Notes: generated by a model from the sequence alone, not told the origin. A stretch of DNA of 32,583 nt from an uncultured Candidatus Peribacteria bacterium (GCA_964373225.1 CAYJTW010000001.1:1-32583); one strand, 5' to 3'; positions 2,445 to 32,021 are shown, counted from the stretch's first letter. Translations and numbers: made by a program.

Positions 2445-4448
2445 ATGCATCCGGATAGAAAATCCATCATGAGATCCAACTCTCCATCTCCGGCACACGG
2501 ATCCGAGCATCTGCTCCGGCAGGCGGCATCGAATCTCACGCCGGACGCCGGCGCGCAAGCGCGCGTCAAGCGCATGATCCTCGCCCAACTCCGTGCTCCG
2601 CATCTGCTCAATCAGGTTCGCGAGGGACTGACGCCGTCGTCGGGACTCATCAAGGATCTATGGTCGCGCATTCTCTCGTCGATTGATCCGATCAGGCACC
2701 TCACGCTCTGGGAGCGTCTTCGCGAACATCTGAAGCCGGCTGCCGGAGCACGTGAACTTCTGTGGAGCAGATTCTCCGTCCGCCTCGAGCCGTCCTACGC
2801 GCGATATGCGGCGTCCGGTCCGGTCAAATGGGTCGCGGCATGCGCCATTGTTCTTGTTGCCGCCCGCGTGAGTCCGCTGCTCTTCCTCGCGCCCGCGTCC
2901 ATCGCGGAATCCCCGGTGACGCTCTTTGCGCGCGAAGGGCGGGTGGAAGTGCTTCTCGGATCGCTGTGGCAGCCGATCACCGGTGAAGTTTCCCTCAATT
3001 CCCCGACCCGCTTGCAAACCCAGAATGGCAAGGCGACGATCGTCACGCACGATGACGCGGTGTTCCGTTTTGCGCCCTACACGCGGGGCCAGCTGGTTGA
3101 TCTTTCCGACCGTCCGCAGTTCTCGGTGCAGGAGACGACGGTGGCGCTCGAAGAGGGAGAACTGTGGGTCCTCGGGCTTGTTCCCAAGCAGGTGCGCGCG
3201 ATCACGGTTCTCACCTCGCAGGGGCGCGTGTTCATCCACGAAGGCAGCGTTTCCATACAACAATCCCCCAGGAAAGTGGTGATTCGCGTGCTCGACCGCA
3301 GCGCCGTCGTGTCGCGTCACGGTCACCGGATATCGCTCGTCGCCGGAGAACAAACCGTGCTCAGCGGCGAGAATGAACCCGTTGCGACAAAAATGGATTC
3401 ATCGGTCTTCCAGGAGGCCTGGGTGGCCGGCAACCTCAGCCGCGACGCGGCCCACCAGCGCGAGATCGCACAGCTGCAGCAGGAGCGCCGCGCCGGAGCC
3501 GCCGGAATTTTGCCCGGTTCGCGCTTCTATCCTGTGAAGCGTCTGGCCGAAACGGTCGATGTGCTCTTCTCTCTCAGCGAAGAGGAACGCGCGCGTAAAC
3601 TCATCACGCAGGCCAACACGCGCCTCAACGAAGCCGCCGCGATGATTTCCAGTGGAGGGACGCAGGCCGCGGAGAATGCATTGCAAGAGTACAAGGATAC
3701 GCTCCTCCAGGTGGCCAGCGGCTCGGGAGGAAGTCCCGTTGTCCAATTACTGCTGCAGACGGAAGTCGTCGATGCCGGACCGGCCACGGTAGCCGCGGCG
3801 CTGCCGGGCGACCCGGGCTACGCACTCAAGCTGGCGGTCGATGACACCATCGCCGCACTGCCCGATACCGTCACGAAGCCCGATGTGGAAGGCGAGGCTC
3901 TCATTGACCAGTTGATCGTGGCCAAGCGCCAGGCGGAGCAGGGCGATACGCAGCTGGCGATGGAGACACTCTCCGGACTCCGCGATTCCATCGCGTCGCT
4001 GGACTCAACGGGCGCCCTCAATCTCGTGGCGGCCGATGTCCGGCATGAAGCCAAAGCAGTCGTGCAACAAGTGGCGGCTGCGGTCCAGGGTCCGGTGCTC
4101 GGCATCGGACTCGCGCTCGGCGTCCCCGAAAAAGATCTGGTGCTCCCGCAGCATCCCTCGCGCACGCTCCTCATCCGCCCGCTCACGCCCGAGCAGGTCA
4201 CCGCCAAGGCGCAGGAGATCCGTGGGCGCATCTTCGTCTACGGCACCAAGAAGGCCAGGTACGACGCTCTCGAAGACCGGATGCGGCTCCTGCTGAACCA
4301 TCCCGACCGCGGTCGCATTCTCCGCGAACTCGGCAAGTCTCTCCCGCGCGACGGGCTTGCGCAGCGCGTTACCCGCGAGATCCGGACGGTGACCGAGGAG
4401 GTGCGGCTGCAAGTCACAGCGAGCGGGGGAACGGCTGCAGCTCAATGA
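2445..4448 (+). CDS. Single-pass membrane protein, probable anti-sigma factor (FecR-like beta-rich domain plus long helical C-terminal domain)
   Basis: Immediately downstream of the ECF sigma gene. One TM segment (VKWVAACAIVLVAARVSPLLFLAPA). The extracytoplasmic beta-rich segment resembles FecR, and the helical part FYPVKRLAETVDVLFSLSEEERARKLI resembles DUF5667-type domains (recalled from memory). Confidence 0.6.
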   Translation: MHPDRKSIMRSNSPSPAHGSEHLLRQAASNLTPDAGAQARVKRMILAQLRAPHLLNQVREGLTPSSGLIKDLWSRILSSIDPIRHLTLWERLREHLKPAAGARELLWSRFSVRLEPSYARYAASGPVKWVAACAIVLVAARVSPLLFLAPASIAESPVTLFAREGRVEVLLGSLWQPITGEVSLNSPTRLQTQNGKATIVTHDDAVFRFAPYTRGQLVDLSDRPQFSVQETTVALEEGELWVLGLVPKQVRAITVLTSQGRVFIHEGSVSIQQSPRKVVIRVLDRSAVVSRHGHRISLVAGEQTVLSGENEPVATKMDSSVFQEAWVAGNLSRDAAHQREIAQLQQERRAGAAGILPGSRFYPVKRLAETVDVLFSLSEEERARKLITQANTRLNEAAAMISSGGTQAAENALQEYKDTLLQVASGSGGSPVVQLLLQTEVVDAGPATVAAALPGDPGYALKLAVDDTIAALPDTVTKPDVEGEALIDQLIVAKRQAEQGDTQLAMETLSGLRDSIASLDSTGALNLVAADVRHEAKAVVQQVAAAVQGPVLGIGLALGVPEKDLVLPQHPSRTLLIRPLTPEQVTAKAQEIRGRIFVYGTKKARYDALEDRMRLLLNHPDRGRILRELGKSLPRDGLAQRVTREIRTVTEEVRLQVTASGGTAAAQ

Positions 4449-4459
4449 CGCACGCGAAA

Positions 4460-4522
4460 CGTTAATTGGTTAATTCGTTCACTCGTATTCTGGTAAACGA
4501 ATTAACCAGTTAACGAATTAAC
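4460..4522. promoter_or_regulatory. AT-rich 20-bp inverted repeat (one T/C mismatch, G-U in RNA) with 16-nt loop, plus a third AACGAATTAAC copy, between the anti-sigma gene and efp
   Basis: CGTTAATTGGTTAATTCGTT (4460-4479) pairs with AACGAATTAACCAGTTAACG (4496-4515). AACGAATTAAC repeats at 4512-4522. There is no U-tract after the stem. Confidence 0.6.
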
Positions 4523-4578
4523 GAGCATGTTTGACCTTTCCTTGCGCAATTTCTCTTCCACCATTACCCTCGCATTCC

Positions 4579-5142
4579 ATGGCCATGTACACCATCACCG
4601 ACCTCAAACCCGGCCGCGCCGTCTCGATCGACGGCCAGCCGTACCTGGTGCTCACCTCGCAGTTTGGCCGCAAAAGCCAGAGCAAGGCGAACATGCAGTG
4701 CAAACTCAAGAATCTGCAGACCGGCGTGATCATGGCGCGCAACTTCCAGGGCAGCGAGAAAATCGAGCAGGCGGATGTGGGCTTCAAGAACGTGCAATAC
4801 CTGTATGGCGACCAGACCTCGTGTACGTTCATGGATCTCGAGACCTACGACCAGTTTGCGCTGCAGAAGAACGACATCGAAGATCTGGTCGGTTTCCTGA
4901 CCGACGGTCTCGAAGTCGATGCACTCATGTACGGCGAAAAGCCAATCAGCATCAAGTTACCGTCGACCGTCATCCTCACAGTCCTCGAAACGATTCCGGG
5001 CGTTAAAGGAGATACTGCGACGGGGGGAGGCAAGCCGGCGAAGCTCGACACAGGGCTCACCGTCACCGTGCCGCTCTTCATCAGCGAGGGCGACAAGATC
5101 ATCGTCAATACGGAGACGGGGGAGTATAAGGAGCGGGCATAA
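4579..5142 (+). CDS. efp: Elongation factor P
   Basis: KPGRAVSIDGQPYLV..., C-terminal GVKGDTATGGGKPAKLDTGLTVTVPLFISEGDKIIVNTETGEYKERA. The ATG at 4579 gives the typical 187 aa, so the ORF-track start at 4531 is probably too early. Confidence 0.93.
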   Translation: MAMYTITDLKPGRAVSIDGQPYLVLTSQFGRKSQSKANMQCKLKNLQTGVIMARNFQGSEKIEQADVGFKNVQYLYGDQTSCTFMDLETYDQFALQKNDIEDLVGFLTDGLEVDALMYGEKPISIKLPSTVILTVLETIPGVKGDTATGGGKPAKLDTGLTVTVPLFISEGDKIIVNTETGEYKERA

Positions 5143-5307
5143 GGGAATTTTGGCTGTAGGAAGGGCAAAGGGAGCGGGCCTTCGGCCCGCGTTCCACGGG
5201 GCCATGGAACTGAAATTATGTTTTCCTGAAGCCAAAAACTCCATTTTTCATTTTCAATCTTTTTTTCAGGGGCAGATTTCTCTTTGGGGAGGAAGCAGAG
5301 TGTAAAT

Positions 5308-5745
5308 ATGTTTCAGCGCCATCCCATTCAGAATGATGCCATTCTGTTTATCACAACGAATACCGCGAAGAGACGGAAGGTCTTCGGGGAATCTGTCAAT
5401 GCCAGAGAAGCCATAGAAACTCTTTACAGAGTTCAAGAGCTCCATCCATTTATTCTTTATGCATTTGTGATCATGCCGGATCATTGTCATTTACTCATGA
5501 GACCGATTCCTCCCATTCAAGTCTCTACCATCATGAGGGTATTCAAATCCGGTGTGAGTTTTAACTTGGGAATCGGTCCGATTTGGCAGACTCGCTTTCA
5601 TTTGAAGGAAGTTGAGAGTGTCACCAGAGTCATCCAATACATTCATAACAATCCTGTTCGGGCAGGCTTCGCTGAGAGTGCAGAGAAATATCCATGGTCA
5701 TCAGCAAGTGGGCGATGGGAAATCACTGAATGGGGATGCCTGTAG
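5308..5745 (+). CDS. REP-associated tyrosine transposase (RAYT; IS200/IS605-like Y1 HUH transposase)
   Basis: HUH motif in MPDHCHLLM; catalytic-Tyr motif IQYIHNNPVRAG..YPWSS; about 145 aa; flanked by REP hairpins. Confidence 0.85.
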   Translation: MFQRHPIQNDAILFITTNTAKRRKVFGESVNAREAIETLYRVQELHPFILYAFVIMPDHCHLLMRPIPPIQVSTIMRVFKSGVSFNLGIGPIWQTRFHLKEVESVTRVIQYIHNNPVRAGFAESAEKYPWSSASGRWEITEWGCL

Positions 5746-19258: not shown

Positions 19259-19556
19259 ATTTCTTCACCGTGACGGTCACTCCAGACGCTCCGTGCTTCT
19301 TGAGTATTATCTGCGCAGCGTCCTCGGCAAATCGTTCTATGGTCTTACGTTCAGTCAACGCAAGTTTCTTCAGATCTTCCGTCACATCGAAGTAGTTGAT
19401 CGATTTCTTGACGTCATCGGTCTTCGCGGCGGCTTTGATATCAAGAGTCATCTCCACGGTGACGAGCAAGCGTTGCTCAGTTTTGCGTTCCTCGGCGGAG
19501 ACGCCGATACGGGTCCAGAGCTCGAGGTCGGTGATGGTGAGCAGATCATGAGACAT
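19206..19556 (-). CDS. folB: Dihydroneopterin aldolase
   Basis: ITDLELWTRIGVSAEERKTEQRLLVTVEM...INYFDV, about 116 aa, directly upstream of folK. Confidence 0.85.
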   Translation of the reverse strand: MSHDLLTITDLELWTRIGVSAEERKTEQRLLVTVEMTLDIKAAAKTDDVKKSINYFDVTEDLKKLALTERKTIERFAEDAAQIILKKHGASGVTVTVKKYAIPESGCVALTVRRSQ

Positions 19557-21982
19557 TATTCATGATGCAGTGTCTTCACTCCAAACAATTCGGGCCTCTC
19601 CGCGAGTGGCGTTTCCGCCAGTCTTCTCAGGAGCCATCGGGTGACGGTGACCGCCGTGAAGAGCGAGAGGAGCACGCCCATGCCGAGGGTGACCGCGAAG
19701 CCGCGGACGATGGAGGATCCGGCCATGAAGAGAATCGTGCAGGTGATGAGGGTCGCGATATTGCCGTCCCGGATGGCCGGCCACGCGTGTTTGAAGCTGC
19801 TTTCGATGGCGGTCTTCACAAGTTTGCCTTTGCGGATTTCTTCCTTCATCCGTTCGAACACGAGCACGTTGGCATCCACGGCCATACCGATGCTCAGGAT
19901 GATACCGGCCATGCCCGCGAGCGTGAGAACGATGTAGTTGCCGGTGAAGAGGAGCAGCGGGAGTTTGAGAATTGCAAAGAGGAGGAGGGCGTAGAAGCCG
20001 AGCGCGAGATCGGCCATCACGCCGAGGATCCGGTACACGACGATCATGTAGAGCATCAGGATGATTGTGCCGAGCAGCGCTGCGAGGAGCGACGTGTGGA
20101 GGGCCGCGGCGCCGAGCGTGGCTTCCACCGTGTACTGCCCCACCAGATAGATGGGCGCCGGGATGGCGCCGGTGTTGAGGTCCTGGGCGAGTTTGCGCGC
20201 TTCGTTAAAATCTCCGCTGCCGGTGATGACGGCGATGCCTCCGGCGATCTCCTGCTGCACGCGCGGGGCCGAGATCATCTCGCCACCGACGAAGATCGCG
20301 ATCTGCTTGCCGACGTTGCGCTTGGTGAGTTCCTGGAAGAGCTTGCCGCCCTCGGCATCGAAGATGATCTGCACCACCGGAATATTCGTGACTGAATCGG
20401 CCGTCACGTTCGCGGCCCGGAAATGTTTACCGTCCAGCGCGGTGTCCTTCCATCCCGTCGGTTCGAGCGAGAAGAAGAGAAGGCGCAGGGTGATGGCGGA
20501 CTCGCGCGATGTCACCTGTCCCGTCTGGAGACGCAGAGCGATGTCGGTGGCGCGCTTCCCGGCGTCCACGCCGGAAATGATCAGCTCGTCGTAGGTCGCG
20601 GTATCGGGCGTCGCGGTCACGGCTTTGTCGAGACGGATGATGTGGTAGCCGAACTGTGTTTCGACGATGCCGGTGATCTCGCCGGGCTTCTTGAGAGCAA
20701 AGACAGCTTCTTCAAACGCGGGAGCCATCACGCCGCGGCCGAAAGAGCCGAGGCTGCCACCATCACTCTTCGACGGGCCGTCGGACTGCGTCCTGGCCAG
20801 CTGCGTGAAGCTGGCGCCGCGGTCGAGACTGGCCTTGAGCGTGGCGGCTTTCTGCAACGCCTGTTCCTTTGTTCTGGTGACTGGGGTCTCTGCACCCGTC
20901 GCCCCCGCGTAACTGACCAGAATATGACTCGCGGCAATTTGCTCCCCGCCGCGGACGAAGGCATTCAAAAAGACGATGCGCGAGGTCGCATCGGTCTGGA
21001 CCTGCCTGAGCGTCCCCGGCTGGGCGCTCCGCAGTGCCGCGGCGACGCGTGCGTCAACGTTGGCATCGACCGGCGCCTTCTCGTGATGCACAGTCGTGGT
21101 TGTTGCTTCGGTCTTCGCGAGGAGCGCGAATGCCCTGGTCGCTTCGCTCACGATACGACCGGTCTCGGTGGGTCCGCGCAGGACTTCGGCCAGAAAGACT
21201 CCGGGAACCTGCTGCCCGGTCTCACTGCCGTCGGCATTTTGTTTCGGCTGCGCGATGCCCCCCTCGCGGAGGACCACGTTGCCCGGTTGCATCGTCCAGA
21301 GATCCTCAAGACCTTTGGGAACCTGGTCACGGAACAGCGTCTTCTGCGGCTGGAACGCCACGCCGAGCTCGCTGCCCATATCCTGGCCTTCCTTCACCAG
21401 CGTCGAACCACTCTGGGCGATCCGCCGGAGCGTCGCCTGCGCCTTTTGCCGGACCCCCCTGGTGAATTCGGCGGTCACTTCGGTGAACGGCTCTTTAAAT
21501 TCCAGCTGGATGGTTTTGCCGACGACTGCAATGCACTCCTGTACGTCGACAACGCCGGGGCATTCCACGAGCAGGTGGCGCTCATTACCGACGTATGACG
21601 GCGTGATGGTCGCTTCGCTGACGCCCAGCGAATTGATGCGGCGTTCGAGAACGGTGCGGATGGCCTCGACGAGATTTGCCTGCTGTTCGGTGATGCTCTG
21701 CTTCTGCGCGCGTGCGAGGTTCACATCCTGCGCGGACGCGCCGCTCTTTTCCAGGCGCGCGATTTCGGCGTTGATATCGTCGAGCTGGGTAGAGATCTCT
21801 TCCTCCGAAATACGAAAGTCGAGCTGCGTTCCTCCGGCCAGGTCCAGTCCCAAGTGGAGCGCGGGGTTCCGGAGGAATCCCGGCGCCCAGGATTTCCACT
21901 GTTGCGGCGCCACGATGAAGACTGCGAACATGCCGATGGCGGCAACGACGAGGGGCCAGGTGAGGGAACGCTTTTGGGTCAT
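19556..21982 (-). CDS. secD: Protein translocase subunit SecD with an embedded parvulin (PpiC-type) PPIase domain
   Basis: N-terminal TM plus LGLDLAGGTQLDF, RRINSLGVSEATI, P1 head GKQIAIFVGGEMISAPRVQQEIAGGIAVITG, and a C-terminal 5-TM bundle (MAVDANVLVFERMKEE). Residues about 347-455 read ASHILV...GGSLGSFGRGVMAPAFEEAVF...FGYHIIRL. Confidence 0.9.
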   Translation of the reverse strand: MTQKRSLTWPLVVAAIGMFAVFIVAPQQWKSWAPGFLRNPALHLGLDLAGGTQLDFRISEEEISTQLDDINAEIARLEKSGASAQDVNLARAQKQSITEQQANLVEAIRTVLERRINSLGVSEATITPSYVGNERHLLVECPGVVDVQECIAVVGKTIQLEFKEPFTEVTAEFTRGVRQKAQATLRRIAQSGSTLVKEGQDMGSELGVAFQPQKTLFRDQVPKGLEDLWTMQPGNVVLREGGIAQPKQNADGSETGQQVPGVFLAEVLRGPTETGRIVSEATRAFALLAKTEATTTTVHHEKAPVDANVDARVAAALRSAQPGTLRQVQTDATSRIVFLNAFVRGGEQIAASHILVSYAGATGAETPVTRTKEQALQKAATLKASLDRGASFTQLARTQSDGPSKSDGGSLGSFGRGVMAPAFEEAVFALKKPGEITGIVETQFGYHIIRLDKAVTATPDTATYDELIISGVDAGKRATDIALRLQTGQVTSRESAITLRLLFFSLEPTGWKDTALDGKHFRAANVTADSVTNIPVVQIIFDAEGGKLFQELTKRNVGKQIAIFVGGEMISAPRVQQEIAGGIAVITGSGDFNEARKLAQDLNTGAIPAPIYLVGQYTVEATLGAAALHTSLLAALLGTIILMLYMIVVYRILGVMADLALGFYALLLFAILKLPLLLFTGNYIVLTLAGMAGIILSIGMAVDANVLVFERMKEEIRKGKLVKTAIESSFKHAWPAIRDGNIATLITCTILFMAGSSIVRGFAVTLGMGVLLSLFTAVTVTRWLLRRLAETPLAERPELFGVKTLHHE

Positions 21983-22644
21983 GGCGCCGCCGTAAATTTC
22001 ACATGCAATCCCACATTGACGTCATCCGCAAATGCCGCTGCGAGGGTCGCACTCGGGATGCCTTCAATCGAAATGGAGGTCTGCCTGTCGGTCGCATCAA
22101 TGGTTTTTTTGCTCATTAATTGACCACGGACGAAGATGCCGATCACGCTGCCGCGATTTTTGGCAAATATGTCCTTGAGGAGCGTCTCGCCCTCTTTGGT
22201 GAACTGGATGACGACGGCGCCCTGCTCCGTCCCCGTCGCCTTCGTCGTGCCGGCCGTGACCCAGTCGATGTGCTTTGTGACGATGCCCGTCTCCTTAAAT
22301 TCGCCGTACTTCTGGCTGACAATGTCGCCCCGTCCGGCGTCCACCTGCTTCATGACCGACATGGTAAAAGGGACCGTGAGGGAGTCCTGCAGAACCTTCG
22401 CGATTTCATCATCTTGTACCGTCACCTCCAGCATCGTCGTATCGCCGTCTTTGCGGATATTCCGGGAAATGAGCTTCTTCTGCTTCGCCAGCACCCGCCC
22501 TTCAACAGTCCGTTGAACGGCTTCGGTGAGCTTCGTCACCCGCTCGGCATCGTTTGTATCGAATGTCAGCGAAAAGCGAACGGTGTTCCCTCCGCAGGCG
22601 GTGAGGAGGAGGGTGAGGGTAAGAATTCCGAGGAGACGTTTCAT
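21979..22644 (-). CDS. Lipoprotein with a SecD-P1-head-like C-terminal domain
   Basis: Lipobox LLLTAC after MKRLLGILTLT. The C-terminus VVIQFTKEGETLLKDIFAKNRGSVIGIFVRGQLMS...ISIEG aligns by eye with SecD VVQIIFDAEGGKLFQELTKRNVGKQIAIFVGGEMIS...AVITG. Its stop overlaps the secD ATG (ATGA). Confidence 0.7.
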   Translation of the reverse strand: MKRLLGILTLTLLLTACGGNTVRFSLTFDTNDAERVTKLTEAVQRTVEGRVLAKQKKLISRNIRKDGDTTMLEVTVQDDEIAKVLQDSLTVPFTMSVMKQVDAGRGDIVSQKYGEFKETGIVTKHIDWVTAGTTKATGTEQGAVVIQFTKEGETLLKDIFAKNRGSVIGIFVRGQLMSKKTIDATDRQTSISIEGIPSATLAAAFADDVNVGLHVKFTAAP

Positions 22645-22721
22645 AGCTGGGGGAGTATAGAGGAAGGATTCCGGGGATTCCAAAGAGTCCAAGGACCGGT
22701 TTTTGTCAGGAGAACGCGCAT

Positions 22722-23705
22722 TCACCTCACAGTCAACCGCGTCCCCGCTCTGAGCATTTGCTTCTGCAGATCAATTCTCTGAAGGACGCAGCCCTCGTCA
22801 ATCACGCAGTCTCTGAGAGTGCAGTCGCGGATCGTCACATTGTCGAAGATCATGCAGTCGGTCAGTGCACTTCCTTCAATCACGCAATTGCGCCCGACCG
22901 TGACGCTCCCGCTGAGTTCCGTTCCTTCCACCGTCGCTGTGGGATCAATCAACGCCTTTTCTCCAATGAGTTCCTTGTGCGCATGCAGGTAACTCCCGAA
23001 TGAGCCGATGTCCATCCACGGCCCGGTGAAGGTGAAGCAGTCGACGGGGATCTCCCTCCGCAGCAATTCTTCAAAAATGCCGCCGAGGTTGTCAGGTTTC
23101 ACCGCGGCGAATTCAACGAGGATGGAGAGAGTGGACTTGGGAAGGATGACGCAACCAGTGCTGACGAGCGTGGAGTTTGGGGATTTCGGCTTCTCTTCAA
23201 ATCTTTTCACCCGTGTTCCTTCTACTATAACGACGCCAAATGCCTTCGCCCTCTCCAGATCCCCCACGTCATGTGCAGCCAGCAGGGGATTGCCTGTCCG
23301 AACGGCTCGGCCGGGCGGGCCGTTGAAGGCCGTCAGAAATTTCTCCAGGGAAAATCCCAGAAAGTTGTCCCCCGTCAAAATCAACAGATCATCATCAACT
23401 CTCTCCGCCTTCACCCACTCAGCAATCGAACCGAGCGCACCGAGTTTGTGATCATCGCGTTGCGTTCCTTCAACAACCAATTCCATGCCGGGTCGTTCCA
23501 TTTCATCCATCCATCTCTTGAATCCATCGGCGAACGCTGCGTTCGTGCTCACCGTCACCGGCATCCCCGCGGGAATCTTCTCCACGAGATGCGTGATGAT
23601 CGGTTTGCCGATGAGCGGGAGCAGGGGTTTGGCCCGCTTTTCGGTGAGAGGCCAGAGTCTTGTGGCGAAGCCACCGGCGAGGATGAAGGCTTTCATTTGT
23701 CCCAT
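22722..23705 (-). CDS. Sugar-phosphate nucleotidyltransferase (NDP-sugar pyrophosphorylase) with C-terminal left-handed beta-helix
   Basis: MKAFILAGGFATRLWPLTEKRAKPLLPL signature, plus hexapeptide-repeat-like C-terminal third. Confidence 0.85.
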   Translation of the reverse strand: MGQMKAFILAGGFATRLWPLTEKRAKPLLPLIGKPIITHLVEKIPAGMPVTVSTNAAFADGFKRWMDEMERPGMELVVEGTQRDDHKLGALGSIAEWVKAERVDDDLLILTGDNFLGFSLEKFLTAFNGPPGRAVRTGNPLLAAHDVGDLERAKAFGVVIVEGTRVKRFEEKPKSPNSTLVSTGCVILPKSTLSILVEFAAVKPDNLGGIFEELLRREIPVDCFTFTGPWMDIGSFGSYLHAHKELIGEKALIDPTATVEGTELSGSVTVGRNCVIEGSALTDCMIFDNVTIRDCTLRDCVIDEGCVLQRIDLQKQMLRAGTRLTVR

Positions 23706-27917: not shown

Positions 27918-28382
27918 ATGCAAAAAATAACTTTGCTCACCGTCGGCCGCATCAAGTTCTCCTGGATCGCTCAGGGCTGTTCAGAGTACCTCGAGCGTCT
28001 GCGCCCCTCCATCAAACTCACCGTCACCGAAATCCCGCCGAGCCGGCAGAAAGATGCCGAGAAGCAGAAGCAGGAAGAGAGCGAGCAGATTCTGCATGCG
28101 CTCGAGAAGGAGAAGGGCGATGTCTTCCTTCTCGATGAAGCGGGCGAGCCGATGACCAGTAAGCAGTTCAGCGTCTTCTTGAGTAAGGCCGAGGACATGG
28201 GCATTCCACTCACCTTCATCCTCGGCGGCGCGTACGGCGTCAGTGATCAGGTCAAATCCATCGTGCGCGGATCCATCCGGCTGAGCGACATGACGCTCAC
28301 GCACGAAATGGCGCGGCTCTTCCTCCTTGAGCAGCTCTACCGGGCAGTCGAAATCAAGAAGGGGAGCGGGTATCACCACTGA
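27918..28382 (+). CDS. rlmH: 23S rRNA (pseudouridine1915-N3)-methyltransferase RlmH (SPOUT)
   Basis: About 154 aa, YLERL, FILGGAYGVSD, IRLSDMTLTHEMARL. Confidence 0.9.
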   Translation: MQKITLLTVGRIKFSWIAQGCSEYLERLRPSIKLTVTEIPPSRQKDAEKQKQEESEQILHALEKEKGDVFLLDEAGEPMTSKQFSVFLSKAEDMGIPLTFILGGAYGVSDQVKSIVRGSIRLSDMTLTHEMARLFLLEQLYRAVEIKKGSGYHH

Positions 28383-28388
28383 TTGGCA

Positions 28389-28919
28389 TCACCACCAGAC
28401 TTTCTTCATCCCAAGGAAATAGCCGATCACGTTCACAGCGAAATGCAGCAGGGGAGTGGCGATCACGATCACCGCGATGTGCGCGATATCCATCGGGTAG
28501 AACGGCAGGACGAAGAGCAGCGCGCCGGCGACGAAGTCCAATTGATCGAAGGGCACCCACGGCGCGCCCGGGGGTTTGCCCAGCCGCCGCTTGAAGAAGG
28601 ATTTGAGGAGGTCACCGAGCACCGCGCCTCCTCCCAGAAGCAGCGTCAGCTGCCACAGGCTTTCCGCGTTGTAGTCGGTCATTCTCCACGCATCCGCGAT
28701 CCCGTAGCTCTGCAAAATCTGCTGCATCATCACGGTCACGAACGCTCCGGCTACTCCAGCGAGGAGTCCGCGGAGAGTTTTATGGTTCCCAAAAAGCGGT
28801 GTTGATAACGGCTCACCCAGCGGCAAATGCAATGACCCGGCAATCGTCGGGCACATGTTGGCGACGTACGCCGGTAAAAAGAAGTACAGGCTCGAGGCGA
28901 TGAGGGTCAGCCACGTCAT
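28389..28919 (-). CDS. carS: CDP-archaeol synthase-like protein (CarS / DUF46 family)
   Basis: FFLPAYVANMCP, FGNHKTLRGLLAG, GDLLKSFFKRRLGKPPGAPWVPFDQLDFV, H..VN.IGYFLG: the pattern recalled for the CarS family. Multi-TM, 176 aa. Confidence 0.65.
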   Translation of the reverse strand: MTWLTLIASSLYFFLPAYVANMCPTIAGSLHLPLGEPLSTPLFGNHKTLRGLLAGVAGAFVTVMMQQILQSYGIADAWRMTDYNAESLWQLTLLLGGGAVLGDLLKSFFKRRLGKPPGAPWVPFDQLDFVAGALLFVLPFYPMDIAHIAVIVIATPLLHFAVNVIGYFLGMKKVWW

Positions 28920-28945
28920 ACGCAGATGCTAACACTCTCCGCTCG

Positions 28946-29470
28946 TCACCGTGAGTGCAGTTGCTTCCATCCCGCAGCGGCATAATCGATCACGCTCCAG
29001 ACCGCGCAGAGTCCGAGGATCCAGAGCGAGAGCGGGAGCAAGGTCCACTGATGTGCAAGCAACAGGAAGAGCGCGCAGAACTGGAAGAACGTCACCACTT
29101 TTCCGCTCCACCGCGACTGGAGGCTCACCGACTTGATGTGACCGGTCATGAGCAATCCCATTGATGCGGGGACTGTGAAGAGATCGCGCAGAAAGAACGC
29201 GAACAGGCCCCAGAGCGGAAGGAGGTTCTGCGCATATCCGTAGAGCACGATCGTGCCCACGAAGATTTTGTCGGTTGCGGGGTCCAGCAGCGCGCCGATA
29301 CCCGATCCCTTCCCAAAGCCACGCGCCACGCATCCATCCAGCCAGTCCGTCAGCGCCGCAAGTCCGAAGAAGAGGTAGCGCGCGGGATGATCGAACGTCA
29401 GGACCACGGCGGCTGCGAGCGGCAGGCGCAGGAGGGAGAGGACGTTGGCGATCACGTTGGGGCTCTTCAT
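28946..29470 (-). CDS. CDP-alcohol phosphatidyltransferase family protein
   Basis: DWLDGCVARGFGKGSGIGALLDPATDK fits D-G-x2-A-R-x8-G-x3-D-x3-D. Start taken at MKSPNV (29470), because the longer ORF would overlap the tRNA gene. Confidence 0.88.
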   Translation of the reverse strand: MKSPNVIANVLSLLRLPLAAAVVLTFDHPARYLFFGLAALTDWLDGCVARGFGKGSGIGALLDPATDKIFVGTIVLYGYAQNLLPLWGLFAFFLRDLFTVPASMGLLMTGHIKSVSLQSRWSGKVVTFFQFCALFLLLAHQWTLLPLSLWILGLCAVWSVIDYAAAGWKQLHSR

Positions 29471-29576: not shown

Positions 29577-29651
29577 GGCCTCATCGTCTAACGGTTAGGA
29601 CAGCAGGTTCTCATCCTGCAAATCGGGGTTCGATTCCCCGTGGGGCTGCCA
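29577..29651 (+). tRNA. tRNA-Glu (anticodon CTC), CCA encoded
   Basis: Folded by hand: acceptor GGCCTCA/TGGGGCT (two G-U pairs), D arm GTCT-AACGGTTA-GGAC, anticodon arm GCAGG-TTCTCAT-CCTGC, T arm CGGGG-TTCGATT-CCCCG, discriminator G, then CCA. A TACAAT box at 29555-29560 sits upstream. Confidence 0.9.
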
Positions 29652-29858: not shown

Positions 29859-31424
29859 GTGGGTTCTCGACCTGAAACACCGGGCAATCACAACACGAAA
29901 ATCGGCGCCGTGCAGGTAAATATGGTCGATTACAAGTTCGGCATGGGTGTGGATGAGAATGATCTGAAGGAGACGAGAGACGCAGTACGCAAGCTCCTCG
30001 ATTCGCTGCGCAAGCATACGACGTTCATTCCTCTGGGAAAGGACAAGACCGTCGCGAACATTGACCTCACACACTGCGACATCGGAACGACGCTGCCCCT
30101 GACCTTGCGTTTCGGGAAGCCGGACGACGCGTACCTCAAACCGTTCGAACTGCCACTGCCTCCGCAGTTCCGCGGGAAGAAGGTTCGCGACTTACACGAT
30201 GCCCTGCAGCAAATGTCGCGTATGGACCCCGGTGGCAACGTCCCGAACATGATTCGCAACTTGGCACACATTATGGGATCCCCGTCCGCTCCGCGTGGCA
30301 TGACGATTGACCTCTACTCCACCGATGAGCCGCTGTTTCAAGTGTGGTTCAGTTCCCTCTCTCAGCAGACGCGCGATCGCATCCGTCTCACGCTCATCGA
30401 TGTCCCGGCGCGCAAAGGCCTGCACCTGCCCTACTCCTCGGACGATCCGAGCAAGCATGGGACACTGGGCATCGGGACTCCGCTGCACTCCACTATCCAT
30501 TCCATGGAAGAGCACTTTCCGCGGCTTATCACGTGCAATCACGTTCTGGTGTCGGAGAGTCTCCATTCACTCGTGAAGAAGAAGGCAGACAAGGAGCAGT
30601 ACCACGAGTTCCAGGATCCCTCCACGGCGTTCCGTGAGCAATGCGCCATCGAGAGCTACAACCACATGCTGAACGGCGGCATGCACATGCCGGTCGTGAC
30701 GATGAACGACGAGGAGATGATCGAGTATTTGACCAGCCTCGAAAAGCGCCGTGACGCTCCGCTCTCCGTGAACCAACCTCTCACGTTCGCGGCGCCGTTC
30801 GACGGGCAACGCCAATTGAATGATGTGACCATGCAACAGGTGAGCAACACGTTTGAGCGGTATTTTGCCTGCGTCACTCCACGACCACACACCACGCTCC
30901 ACTTCCCCCTCAATGTGAGCTGCGGAAGTAGGGGTGGCTACCACATCGCCTGCACCCCAAAGGGCACGCGTTTCGCAATCTTCTCGTCGACACCGCGCAG
31001 TACGGAGGGAGCACAGCGCATGCTCTCCACCATCGGCAAGAACGACGACATCTCTCTGGAGAAAAGTTACGTCATGGGCGCGGGGGATGCCGTGGCGACC
31101 GTCCTCTCGCTTGCGCATCTCTGGGATATCCCGGAGATGCTTCGGACGCACGCGAACAAGACGCATCCGCTGGATGCCCGCTTCATCGAAACAGCGTCCA
31201 TCATCTTCGTGAGTCTGCTCAGCAGATTCGTCGGCGAAATGGTCTTTCACTCCGATCGATGCGACTGGACCAGTGTTCCTCAGGAACTGTTTCCGGATAT
31301 CGTCCGACGCGTCGCCGAGAAGAGTCTGGACGCTGCCACCCATGTCTGGGGCCGCACCGAGAAGCCCCAACAGGTGCGGGAGAACGAATGGGACATGGAT
31401 ATCGCAATTTGGGAACTGCAGTAA
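29859..31424 (+). CDS. Hypothetical protein (about 500-521 aa) with faint ribokinase-superfamily-like motifs
   Basis: PGGNVPNMIRNLAHIMG (about residue 125) and YVMGAGDAVATVLSL (about residue 407) resemble the GG and GxGD motifs of PfkB / ADP-dependent sugar kinases. GTG at 29859; first ATG at 29922. Confidence 0.55.
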   Translation: MGSRPETPGNHNTKIGAVQVNMVDYKFGMGVDENDLKETRDAVRKLLDSLRKHTTFIPLGKDKTVANIDLTHCDIGTTLPLTLRFGKPDDAYLKPFELPLPPQFRGKKVRDLHDALQQMSRMDPGGNVPNMIRNLAHIMGSPSAPRGMTIDLYSTDEPLFQVWFSSLSQQTRDRIRLTLIDVPARKGLHLPYSSDDPSKHGTLGIGTPLHSTIHSMEEHFPRLITCNHVLVSESLHSLVKKKADKEQYHEFQDPSTAFREQCAIESYNHMLNGGMHMPVVTMNDEEMIEYLTSLEKRRDAPLSVNQPLTFAAPFDGQRQLNDVTMQQVSNTFERYFACVTPRPHTTLHFPLNVSCGSRGGYHIACTPKGTRFAIFSSTPRSTEGAQRMLSTIGKNDDISLEKSYVMGAGDAVATVLSLAHLWDIPEMLRTHANKTHPLDARFIETASIIFVSLLSRFVGEMVFHSDRCDWTSVPQELFPDIVRRVAEKSLDAATHVWGRTEKPQQVRENEWDMDIAIWELQ

Positions 31425-31472
31425 TACCATGCATCGCCAGAGTGGTATCCCACAGATTTGACACAATAGAAA

Positions 31473-32021
31473 TTGCAGTGGAGAATGCTCAACCCACCCA
31501 TGACGAAGAAGATCCCGCTTGCGGTCGTGTCCTACCCGTTCGGAGTGGAGCGCATCGTTGACCTCGATGGCAAGGTCTACCGCATCCCGAATGTTGTGAT
31601 GGAATACAGTCCGGAATTTGCGAGGAAGGAGGTCGAGCAGTACCGCCTGTTCCCACGCAGGGAGAAACGCAGACTCAGCACCATCCGCTTTGCGGAACGG
31701 TACGACTTTTTCGACGATCCGATGCGCAGGAGCATCGATACACTCCGTAGCAAGGTCAGGAGTTACATGAGGCCGGTCGGCTCCATCTCGCAGATGATGA
31801 TGAAGGTGATCCTGGAATCGTGCGACGTGTTCCTGACGAAACGACGTGAACCGATTGATTACTTCGACTACCTCGCCCCGGCGAAGATCATTCGGGACTT
31901 GGGAGGGCACGTCACGGATCTCGAGGGGAAGGTCCTCGGGGATGTGGAACGGGTCGAGGGCCTCATCGTCGCCTCGCGCAAGCGAACGCACACGACATTC
32001 ATGAAAACGCTTCATGTGTAG
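31473..32021 (+). CDS. Hypothetical protein (about 175-182 aa) with an IMPase-like C-terminal motif
   Basis: FDYLAPAKIIRDLGGHVTDLEGKVL resembles the WDxAAGxxIxxEAGGxVTDxxG motif of inositol-monophosphatase-fold proteins. The N-terminal DPIDGT metal site was not seen. ATG options at 31485 and 31500. Confidence 0.5.
   Translation: MQWRMLNPPMTKKIPLAVVSYPFGVERIVDLDGKVYRIPNVVMEYSPEFARKEVEQYRLFPRREKRRLSTIRFAERYDFFDDPMRRSIDTLRSKVRSYMRPVGSISQMMMKVILESCDVFLTKRREPIDYFDYLAPAKIIRDLGGHVTDLEGKVLGDVERVEGLIVASRKRTHTTFMKTLHV

What the first reader, a model, noticed from the sequence alone, without database searches (positions are those of the whole stretch)
28389..29470. Archaeal-type CDP-archaeol-synthase-like gene paired with a CDP-alcohol phosphatidyltransferase in a bacterium
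Seen in sequence: a two-gene minus-strand operon with a 26-nt gap. The upstream gene has the D-G-x2-A-R-x8-G-x3-D-x3-D transferase motif. The downstream 176-aa membrane protein carries PAYVAN, HKTLRG and GDLLKSFFKRRLG...PFDQLDF, which I recognise as the CarS (DUF46) pattern rather than bacterial CdsA. Established knowledge: in archaea, CarS makes CDP-archaeol, and CDP-alcohol transferases then add the head group. CarS-like genes have been reported sporadically in uncultivated bacteria. Inference: this organism may activate its lipid precursor with a CarS-type enzyme, which raises the question of which glycerol-phosphate backbone and which chains it uses.
Basis: partly seen in the sequence, partly recalled or inferred. 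Interest (0 to 1): 0.6.

Follow-up and report, generated by a model that had tools for sequence, protein, structure and literature searches.

The report
CarS-type lipid head-group cassette in CPR bacterium
A tiny-genome groundwater-type bacterium (Peribacteria, Candidate Phyla Radiation) that cannot build lipids itself carries a two-gene cassette, an archaeal-family CarS enzyme plus a PgsA-like head-group transferase, that most likely re-activates and re-heads lipids taken from other cells. The genes are real and conserved, public databases already annotate them, and this scan has seen them many times.

Summary
ORF 28389-28919(-) is a full-length CarS-family protein: PF01864 at 125 bits, a CarS fold, and every family-invariant residue kept. 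ORF 28946-29470(-), 26 nt upstream, is a CDP-alcohol phosphatidyltransferase with the complete catalytic motif; its best match is PgsA.

The genome is 1.07 Mb and 86% complete. Its nearest relative is a Ca. Peribacteria MAG. I found no CdsA, PlsY, PlsC, GGGPS, UbiA-type prenyltransferase or G1PDH-type gene. It does have a DgkA-type kinase and a two-HKD PLD/Cls-type gene.

In 100 high-quality genomes of the same order:
- None has a true CdsA.
- 22 have a CarS-like gene, and all of those also have a CDP-alcohol transferase, usually directly upstream.

Across 300 Patescibacteria, 58 have a CarS-like gene and 7 have CdsA. Within the order, CarS clades track the class of the partner transferase (PgsA-type or inositol-phosphate-type), so the pair behaves as an exchangeable cassette.

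Best reading: the pair CDP-activates and re-heads scavenged lipid phosphate, probably PA -> CDP-DAG -> PGP. De novo archaeal lipid synthesis is not supported. Salvage of archaeal lipids is not excluded.

Public databases already name these proteins 'CDP-archaeol synthase', and this scan found the same theme before on other DNA (39 notes, at least 38 genomes). I found no biochemical study.

The parts
28389..28919 (-). CarS-family CTP:lipid-phosphate cytidylyltransferase (176 aa, 5-TM type), the downstream gene of the pair
   Evidence: PF01864 at 125 bits, full length. NCBIfam NF003114 at 141.2 bits, just under its cutoff of 148. ApCarS 5GUF by sequence, E 2.5e-17. AF2 model pLDDT 95.3, with Foldseek 5GUF TM 0.67/0.74. 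Invariant K47 T48 G51 G102 D103 S107 K110 R111 D125 Q126 D128 are all kept.
28920..28945 (-). 26-nt intergenic spacer between the transferase stop and the CarS start. It contains GGAGAG about 15 nt before the ATG.
   Evidence: Read directly from the sequence. No terminator-like site lies between the two genes.
28946..29470 (-). CDP-alcohol phosphatidyltransferase (174 aa), a divergent PgsA-like protein and the upstream gene of the pair
   Evidence: PF01066 at 78 bits. Best NCBIfam match is pgsA TIGR00560 at 72.5 bits over its full length, below the cutoff of 109.1, followed by ClsA-type at 57 bits. Motif D42-x2-D45-G46-x2-A49-R50-x8-G59-x3-D63-x3-D67 is invariant in 24 order homologues. S. aureus PgsA 7DRJ is the only PDB sequence hit.
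29577..29651 (+). tRNA-Glu(CUC). It bounds the cassette on its upstream side and is not part of the module.
   Evidence: ARAGORN. An identical tRNA lies 3.4 kb from the cassette in the same-genus genome G096, and next to RlmH without the cassette in G051.
27918..28382 (+). RlmH (SPOUT methyltransferase), a convergent neighbour 6 nt from the CarS stop. It bounds the cassette and is not part of the module.
   Evidence: PF02590 at 148 bits. TrmA-RlmH synteny is kept in 7 genomes of the genus, but only this one has the cassette beside it.

Best explanation
The two genes form one operon that attaches a new polar head group to a pre-formed, scavenged membrane-lipid phosphate. Step 1 (CarS-like enzyme): CTP + lipid phosphate -> CDP-lipid + PPi. 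The lipid phosphate is most likely diacyl phosphatidate taken from a host or neighbour, or regenerated from scavenged diacylglycerol or phospholipid by the genome's DgkA-type kinase or PLD-type enzyme. Step 2 (CDP-alcohol transferase): CDP-lipid + an alcohol -> lipid-P-alcohol + CMP. Here the alcohol is most likely glycerol phosphate, giving PGP and then PG. In this lineage the CarS-family enzyme takes the place that CdsA holds in ordinary bacteria. What is shown: family membership, fold, retained catalytic residues, operon structure, strict co-occurrence of the two genes, and failure to find CdsA or any lipid-core synthesis gene. What is inferred: the substrates, the source of the lipid phosphate, and the head group.
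For: Family and competence:
- PF01864 matched over its full length.
- Fold equals ApCarS.
- All 11 family-invariant polar or glycine residues are kept.
- The transferase has the complete CAPT catalytic motif.

Need for this enzyme:
- The only PF01148 signal in the genome is this same gene.
- None of 100 high-quality genomes of the order has a separate CdsA.
- Only 7 of 300 phylum genomes have a full-length CdsA, against 58 with a CarS-like gene.

Functional coupling:
- All 23 CarS-positive genomes of the order sample (G000 included) also have PF01066.
- In 21 of the 22 other than G000 it lies on the same contig, mostly directly upstream on the same strand.
- CarS clades co-vary with the class of the partner transferase.

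No de novo core synthesis:
- PF01884, PF01040, PF13685, PF01553 and PF02660 were not found in the 86%-complete genome.
- No full-length GGGPS in 100 order genomes.

Possible suppliers of PA:
- A DgkA-type gene (72 bits).
- A two-HKD PLD/Cls-type gene.

Some CarS-adjacent transferases in the order pass the bacterial PgsA equivalog cutoff (116-126 bits).

Literature:
- CPR bacteria lack complete lipid synthesis yet have normal membranes, so their lipids probably come from other community members (PMC7242380).
- A head-group salvage route through a 'putative phosphatidate cytidylyltransferase' was proposed for a Saccharibacterium (PMC6031116).
Against: - The characterised family members argue against a diacyl substrate. 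AfCarS strongly prefers DGGGP over phosphatidate and could not complement an E. coli cdsA mutant (review PMC9385802).
- Both proteins score below NCBI's equivalog cutoffs (141.2 vs 148; 72.5 vs 109.1).
- No source of glycerol-3-phosphate was found. The 'GpsA' hit is a UDP-glucose dehydrogenase, and there is no GDPD.
- DgkA-type proteins can be undecaprenol kinases, and neither DgkA nor PLD tracks CarS across the order.
- 78 of 100 order genomes manage without the cassette, so it is accessory rather than essential.
- The genome is incomplete (85.7%).
Confidence: 0.62

Rival explanations
1. Salvage of archaeal lipids. The enzyme keeps the family's isoprenoid preference and activates archaetidic acid or DGGGP taken from an archaeal host to CDP-archaeol. 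The partner transferase then makes archaetidylglycerophosphate, so the bacterium carries archaeal-type or mixed membrane lipids.
For: Characterised CarS enzymes prefer isoprenoid substrates (PMC9385802). The protein is a full-length, catalytically intact CarS with the ApCarS fold. In the tree, bacterial and archaeal sequences, including DPANN Woesearchaeota at 40-44% identity, are interleaved rather than separated. PgsA-type transferases are homologous to the archaeal AGP synthases, so the partner does not discriminate.
Against: Nothing points to an archaeal host. Lipid surveys attribute ordinary fatty-acid lipids and lysolipids to CPR cells (PMC7242380). Some CarS-adjacent partners pass the bacterial PgsA equivalog threshold. 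The family is present in about one fifth of all sampled Patescibacteria, including Saccharibacteria, whose cultured members grow on bacterial hosts (PMC8080830).
Confidence: 0.13
2. De novo archaeal-type ether lipid synthesis. The gene is the CDP-archaeol step of a complete archaeal pathway encoded elsewhere in the genome.
For: Family name and near-threshold match to the CarS equivalog model. The genome is only 85.7% complete. Per an unchecked scan note (e1-2565915), one Patescibacteria family elsewhere carries GGGPS and DGGGPS.
Against: No PcrB/GGGPS, no UbiA-family prenyltransferase and no Fe-ADH_2/G1PDH in the genome. In 100 high-quality genomes of the order, only weak partial PF01884 cross-hits (18-26 bits, C-terminal third of the profile) and none full length.
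Confidence: 0.03
3. A role outside bulk membrane phospholipid. The CarS-like protein acts on another lipid phosphate or alcohol (polyprenyl phosphate, lyso-lipid, or as a CTP-dependent kinase like the related dolichol and phytol kinases). The pair then builds an envelope or anchor molecule rather than a bulk phospholipid.
For: The CTP-transferase superfamily includes CTP-dependent polyprenol kinases (my own knowledge of the PF01148 clan, not tested here). The cassette is accessory: 22 of 100 in the order, present or absent within one genus, and located in a variable tRNA-adjacent region. An earlier scan note on another CPR clade argued for an envelope or pilus-linked role (e1-828227, unchecked). 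Cultured Xanthomonadales have a CarS-like gene, and as free-living Proteobacteria they would be expected to have CdsA as well (not checked here), so in them it may do something else.
Against: All CarS-invariant residues, including the D-Q-x-D metal site and the S-F-x-K-R motif, are kept. The 23 of 23 co-occurrence and adjacency with a CDP-alcohol transferase is what a CDP-lipid donor and its user would show. The partners are PgsA-type or inositol-phosphate-type phospholipid synthases.
Confidence: 0.15
4. A recently acquired or decaying passenger with no current function.
For: Patchy distribution (14 of 55 genera) and a different genomic position in the same-genus genome G096. CarS is only 61% identical between G000 and G096, while CAPT, RlmH and TrmA are 84-94% identical.
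Against: Both frames are intact, all catalytic residues are kept, composition is native, and the pair is conserved as a pair across many genera.
Confidence: 0.05

Closest known systems
Archaeal CDP-archaeol synthase CarS (Pfam PF01864; A. pernix ApCarS, PDB 5GUF; A. fulgidus AfCarS)
   Same: Same family, length (about 175 aa), five-helix membrane fold (TM 0.67/0.74 to 5GUF) and invariant residues. Same expected chemistry: CMP transfer from CTP to a lipid phosphate.
   Different: The host is a bacterium with no GGGPS, DGGGPS or G1PDH. The score is just under NCBI's CarS equivalog cutoff. The substrate is untested and is probably not made by the cell itself. Characterised CarS enzymes reject phosphatidate, which this enzyme would have to accept under the best explanation.
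Bacterial CDP-diacylglycerol synthase CdsA (PF01148; T. maritima TmCdsA, PDB 4Q2E/4Q2G)
   Same: Same superfamily and catalytic core. The proposed cellular role (making the CDP-lipid donor for PgsA-type enzymes) is the CdsA role, and no CdsA was found in this genome or in 100 relatives.
   Different: Only a 24-bit partial match to PF01148, on residues 46-114. About 100 residues shorter, and by CarS-family precedent without the dimerisation domain that CdsA has (ApCarS lacks it, PMC7018664). Structural match to CdsA is weaker (TM about 0.5/0.36) than to CarS.
[quoted passage not shown]
   Same: The upstream gene has the complete CAPT motif and a full-length alignment to the PgsA model. Several orthologous-position partners in the same order pass the PgsA cutoff.
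   Different: The window's copy is divergent (72.5 bits vs cutoff 109.1). In other genera of the order, and in one genome of the same genus (G092), the partner is instead inositol-phosphate-synthase-like.
Head-group salvage route proposed for Saccharibacteria (Starr et al. 2018, PMC6031116), and CPR lipid scavenging (Probst et al. 2020, PMC7242380)
   Same: The same logic: a lipid-auxotrophic CPR cell takes up phosphatidate or phospholipid and re-heads it through a cytidylyltransferase plus CDP-alcohol transferases.
   Different: Those papers do not identify the cytidylyltransferase as a CarS-family protein, and do not describe the conserved two-gene cassette or its distribution.
Archaeal-like ether-lipid gene sets in FCB-group bacteria (Villanueva et al. 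2020, PMC7852524)
   Same: Archaeal-family lipid genes in bacteria.
   Different: It is the opposite gene complement. Those bacteria have GGGPS and DGGGPS but no CarS and are thought to use CdsA. This genome has CarS but no GGGPS, DGGGPS or CdsA.

Membership tests
CarS / CDP-archaeol synthase family (PF01864) | Full-length match to the family HMM above the gathering score, and better than to CdsA | tested here: met
   125.1 bits against a cutoff of 22, covering profile positions 2-175 of 175. PF01148 gives only 24.4 bits and a partial match.
CarS / CDP-archaeol synthase family (PF01864) | Five-helix intramembrane fold of ApCarS | tested here: met
   AF2 pLDDT 95.3, pTM 0.89. Foldseek top hit is 5GUF, probability 1.0, TM 0.67/0.74, ahead of TmCdsA at about 0.5/0.36.
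CarS / CDP-archaeol synthase family (PF01864) | Invariant catalytic and binding residues (G-x2-K-T-x2-G; G-D-x3-S-F-x-K-R; D-Q-L-D) | tested here: met
   K47 T48 G51 G102 D103 S107 K110 R111 D125 Q126 D128 are conserved in 99-100% of 79 bacterial and archaeal homologues and are present here.
CarS equivalog (NCBIfam NF003114, CDP-2,3-bis-(O-geranylgeranyl)-sn-glycerol synthase) | Score at or above the curated equivalog cutoff | tested here: not met
   141.2 bits against a cutoff of 148. This is a near miss, so same-function assignment is not licensed by NCBI's own rule.
CarS equivalog (functional CDP-archaeol synthase) | Uses DGGGP or archaetidic acid as substrate | not testable with these tools
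   Needs an enzyme assay.
Archaeal ether-lipid pathway | Co-occurrence with G1PDH, GGGPS and DGGGPS | tested here: not met
   PF13685, PF01884 and PF01040 not found in the 85.7%-complete genome. No full-length PF01884 in 100 order genomes.
CdsA (PF01148, phosphatidate cytidylyltransferase) | Full-length match to the CdsA model, about 260-290 aa with the N-terminal and dimerisation region | tested here: not met
   Only profile positions 169-229 of 264 match, at 24 bits, and the protein is 176 aa.
CDP-alcohol phosphatidyltransferase (PF01066) | HMM match above cutoff and the D-x2-D-G-x2-A-R-x8-G-x3-D-x3-D motif | tested here: met
   78.2 bits against a cutoff of 22. The motif is read in the sequence and is invariant in 24 order homologues.
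PgsA equivalog (TIGR00560) | Score at or above the curated cutoff | tested here: not met
   72.5 bits against 109.1. It is the best-scoring model and aligns over its full length, so the protein is 'PgsA-like' only. Partners in G003, G061 and G084 do pass, at 116-126 bits.

The most novel reading that the evidence does not exclude
The CarS-family enzyme keeps an isoprenoid preference, and this bacterium, like other CarS-bearing Patescibacteria, takes up archaeal diether lipid phosphate from an archaeal partner, converts it to CDP-archaeol and re-heads it. It would then live with archaeal-type or mixed (heterochiral) membrane lipids that it does not synthesise.
Probability: 0.1. Interest if true: 0.8.

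Novelty: new member of a known kind. Interest (0 to 1): 0.4.

Why it matters
CPR/Patescibacteria are a large part of bacterial diversity. They are thought to be unable to make lipids, and how they build and tailor their membranes is open. The counts here point to one answer for the step that makes the activated lipid donor: no CdsA in 100 relatives, CarS-like genes outnumbering CdsA 58 to 7 across the phylum sample, and strict pairing with a head-group transferase. Where that step exists in this group, it is done by the archaeal family of the enzyme.

If that enzyme accepts diacyl phosphatidate, the accepted view that CarS and CdsA 'uphold the lipid divide' needs qualifying. If it accepts only isoprenoid lipids, these bacteria would have to use archaeal lipids. 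Either outcome can be tested directly with a 176-aa protein and standard assays.

For this particular window the result is one more, well-documented member of a pattern that public annotation and this scan already hold.

Tried and rejected
- **Gene fusions.** Long stop-to-stop frames around CarS-like genes in high-GC bacteria (L030, L038, L062, L068, L072, L078, L050) carry no extra Pfam domain, so they are not fusions.
- **The neighbouring 521-aa ORF (GAGD motif, no Pfam hit even at E 10) and the IMPase-like 182-aa ORF as part of an inositol-lipid module.** Neither is found within 5 kb of CarS in any of the 80 related loci, including the same-genus locus L005 (= G096). I rejected them as module members.
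- **Glycerol-3-phosphate source.** The PF01210 hit is a UDP-glucose/GDP-mannose dehydrogenase, and PF03009 was not found.
- **DgkA and PLD as markers of the pathway.** Both are widespread in the order (64 and 65 of 100) and do not track CarS. They are compatible with the model but not diagnostic.
- **Context in cultured Xanthomonadales (Dokdonella L063).** The neighbours are a GGDEF protein, an FBPase_3 fragment and a phosphorylase-like ORF, which say nothing about function.
- **Deep phylogeny.** The proteins are short, and the deep nodes of the quick trees are unresolved. I name no donor or direction of transfer.
- **Expression.** No RNA holder is listed among the public runs. Seven DNA metagenome runs from two studies hold the stretch. 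I did not lay reads.
- **Literature.** In the open-access library searched I found no paper describing CarS homologues in CPR. Coleman et al. 2019 do not treat CarS. The ApCarS structure paper (Ren et al. 2017) is not held, so I could not compare lipid-groove residues.

Full report
**What is in the sequence**

ORF 28389-28919 encodes 176 aa and ORF 28946-29470 encodes 174 aa. They are separated by 26 nt, with no terminator-like site between them. A longer reading of the upstream frame, to 29584, would overlap tRNA-Glu(CUC) at 29577-29651, so the ATG at 29470 is the sensible start.

The downstream protein matches Pfam CarS-like (PF01864) over the whole profile. The score is 125 bits, E 3.9e-36. 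The CdsA model PF01148 gives only a 24-bit partial match to the shared catalytic loop. NCBI's CarS equivalog model NF003114 gives 141.2 bits, just under its cutoff of 148.

The upstream protein matches PF01066 at 78 bits. It carries the complete D-x2-D-G-x2-A-R-x8-G-x3-D-x3-D motif. Its best NCBIfam model is PgsA, with a full-length alignment at 72.5 bits, below the cutoff of 109.1.

**Is the CarS-like protein a plausible enzyme?**

Three results say yes:
- The only solved relative by sequence is A. pernix CarS, 5GUF (E 2.5e-17).
- An AlphaFold2 model built on 33 homologues is very confident (pLDDT 95.3, pTM 0.89). Its best structural match is 5GUF (TM 0.67/0.74, probability 1.0), ahead of T. 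maritima CdsA at about 0.5/0.36.
- In an alignment of 79 bacterial and archaeal homologues, eleven positions are 99-100% conserved in both domains: K47, T48, G51, G102, D103, S107, K110, R111, D125, Q126, D128. All are present here.

**Whose genome is it, and what else does it hold?**

The assembly is 1.07 Mb in 131 contigs and 85.7% complete. The closest CarS-like and transferase genes are in a Candidatus Peribacteria MAG, L005, which is the same-genus genome G096. After that come Peregrinibacteria, Parcubacteria and Gracilibacteria. The window itself carries ordinary bacterial genes (RlmH, a TRAM/U5 methyltransferase, SecDF), and the cassette has the window's GC content.

Searches of the whole genome gave these results:

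| Gene family | Result in own genome |
|---|---|
| CdsA (PF01148) | none other than this same gene |
| PcrB/GGGPS (PF01884) | not found |
| UbiA-family prenyltransferase (PF01040) | not found |
| Fe-ADH_2/G1PDH (PF13685) | not found |
| PlsC-type acyltransferase (PF01553) | not found |
| PlsY (PF02660) | not found |
| CDP-alcohol transferase (PF01066) | this gene only |
| DgkA-type kinase (PF01219) | present |
| Two-HKD PLD/cardiolipin-synthase-type (PF13091) | present |
| GpsA (PF01210) | none; the hit is a UDP-glucose dehydrogenase |
| GDPD (PF03009) | not found |

So neither the bacterial nor the archaeal route to a lipid core was found. [quoted passage not shown]

**Distribution**

I sampled 100 high-quality genomes of the same order, which fall in a single family:
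- 22 have a CarS-like gene, in 14 of 55 genera.
- Every PF01148 hit in these genomes is that same CarS gene, so no genome has a separate CdsA.
- 32 have PF01066. That set includes all 22 CarS-positive genomes and G000 as well, so co-occurrence is 23 of 23.
- In 21 of the 22, the transferase is on the same contig, and in most it lies directly upstream on the same strand within about 100 nt.
- No full-length GGGPS appears in these 100 genomes, only weak partial cross-hits.

In an even sample of 300 Patescibacteria, 58 have a CarS-like gene, in 51 of 248 genera. Only 7 have a full-length CdsA.

Outside the phylum, the family occurs in MAGs labelled Nitrospirota, Rokubacteria, Gemmatimonadota and Bdellovibrionota. 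It also occurs in cultured Xanthomonadales (Pseudoxanthomonas sacheonensis, Dokdonella immobilis, Tahibacter caeni) and, as expected, in archaea.

Public records already name the CPR proteins 'CDP-archaeol synthase'.

**The pair behaves as a cassette**

I fetched the CarS-adjacent transferases of 20 order genomes. They fall into two classes:
- PgsA-type. G003, G061 and G084 pass the PgsA equivalog cutoff at 116-126 bits.
- Weakly archaetidylinositol- or phosphatidylinositol-phosphate-synthase-like: G092, G100, G062, G025, G069 and G083.

A tree that includes the order's CarS-like proteins puts them in at least three separate, well-supported groups:
- One clade (99*) goes with the inositol-type partner in 6 of 7 cases.
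- A second clade (99*) goes with PgsA-type partners.
- The window plus G096 (97*) lies in a broader CPR group with divergent PgsA-like partners.

Even within the genus the module differs, because G092 has the inositol-type pair.

Synteny in the genus shows presence and absence at a single site. TrmA-RlmH is conserved in seven genomes, but only this genome has the cassette between RlmH and tRNA-Glu. G051 has RlmH, then 890 bp, then tRNA-Glu, with no cassette. G096 has the cassette 3.4 kb from an identical tRNA-Glu.

Deep nodes of the trees are unresolved, and bacteria and archaea are interleaved. I therefore do not name a donor.

**How it most likely works**

The chemistry of both families is established. 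A CTP:lipid-phosphate cytidylyltransferase makes a CDP-lipid, and a CDP-alcohol transferase moves the lipid phosphate onto an alcohol.

The strict co-occurrence and adjacency shown here fit a donor-maker and a donor-user. Since no core-synthesis genes were found, the lipid phosphate most likely comes from outside, or from scavenged lipid reworked by the DgkA-type or PLD-type enzymes. That last step is inferred.

The most economical reading is PA -> CDP-DAG -> PGP (-> PG), with CarS standing in for CdsA. A similar salvage scheme was proposed for a Saccharibacterium, without identifying the enzyme family (PMC6031116).

The main argument against is biochemical precedent. AfCarS prefers DGGGP to phosphatidate and does not rescue an E. 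coli cdsA mutant (PMC9385802). The rival that these cells re-head archaeal lipids therefore stays open, and I put it at about 0.13. De novo archaeal lipid synthesis is nearly excluded. A non-phospholipid role is possible but fits the partner enzymes less well.

**Comparison and novelty**

By every sequence and structure test, the gene is a member of the CarS family. It is not licensed as a CarS equivalog: it narrowly misses the cutoff, its pathway partners are missing, and the substrate is untested. The role proposed for it is the CdsA role, but it is not a CdsA.

The gene complement is the reverse of the FCB-group bacteria of Villanueva et al. Those have GGGPS and DGGGPS but no CarS (PMC7852524).

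In the open-access library I found no paper that describes CarS homologues in CPR. However, the annotation is public, and this scan has noted the theme 39 times in at least 38 other genomes. Those notes include the same 'activation pair' reading and inositol-type clusters. One note, checked later, stated that CarS-like genes are common in the phylum without GGGPS.

What this window adds:
- order-level and phylum-level counts;
- the finding that the CarS clade and the partner class co-vary;
- the presence or absence of the cassette at one tRNA-adjacent site within a genus.

**Verdict**

This is a real, intact and conserved two-gene head-group cassette in a lipid-auxotrophic CPR bacterium. It is a new member of a known kind. 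The open and testable question is its substrate.

Noticed in passing
window 29859-32021 (+): Just beyond tRNA-Glu lie two co-directional ORFs in the same frame, separated by a TAA stop and 48 nt. The first is 521 aa, has a ribokinase-like 'MGAGDAV' motif and gives no Pfam hit even at E 10. The second is 182 aa and matches only the C-terminal 110 positions of the inositol monophosphatase family (34.6 bits). Neither occurs near CarS in the 80 related loci. A 536-aa ORF on the opposite strand overlaps them and has no Pfam hit either.
   Followed up: partly
L071, L072, L074, L078, L079 (CarS-like at about 4329-5495 in the 10-kb loci): Nearly identical CarS-like proteins (terminal branch lengths 0.01-0.08) sit in MAGs labelled Gemmatimonadetes, Syntrophales, Hyphomicrobiales, Gallionellaceae and Rhodoferax. 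This looks like one organism or element binned into several unrelated MAGs, or a very recent transfer.
   Followed up: no
L012, L013, L015 ('Nitrospirota' MAG contigs): Their CarS-like genes nest inside the CPR clade next to a Gracilibacteria sequence (L017), at 95-98 SH-aLRT support. Either CPR contigs were mis-binned or there was a CPR-to-Nitrospirota transfer.
   Followed up: no
L063:4343-4963 (-), Dokdonella immobilis: An ORF divergent from, and slightly overlapping, the CarS-like gene matches only the first 136 of 361 positions of the archaeal-type FBP aldolase/phosphatase family (PF01950, 176 bits). It is followed by a GGDEF gene, so it may be a truncated gene. That makes two 'archaeal-type' genes side by side in a cultured gammaproteobacterium.
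   Followed up: no
window 27918-28382 (+); L033, L045, L047, L080: RlmH lies within about 0.7-1.3 kb downstream of the CarS-like gene in four Saccharibacteria loci as well as here (on the opposite, convergent strand in three of the four), although same-genus relatives of the window lack the arrangement. This is either chance or an old CPR linkage.
   Followed up: no
window 28389-29470 vs L005/L086 (G096): Divergence between the two same-genus genomes is uneven: CarS 61% amino-acid identity, but the adjacent transferase 84%, RlmH 88% and TrmA-like 94%. The CarS gene is either evolving much faster or was replaced inside the cassette.
   Followed up: partly
window 19556-21982 (-): An 808-aa SecD/SecF-type protein carries a PPIC-type peptidyl-prolyl isomerase domain (residues about 347-452, 93 bits) inserted between its SecD N-terminal and P1-head domains. 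The next ORF (21979-22725) has a second weak SecDF P1-head match.
   Followed up: no
G259:C1:26982-27437, G347:C2:77564-78010, G346:C5:2295-2900 (phylum sample): Some Patescibacteria have a second, about 220-240-aa protein that matches the middle of the CdsA profile at about 32 bits. It is neither CarS-like nor full-length CdsA, and may be a third CTP-transferase or polyprenol-kinase-like subfamily.
   Followed up: no
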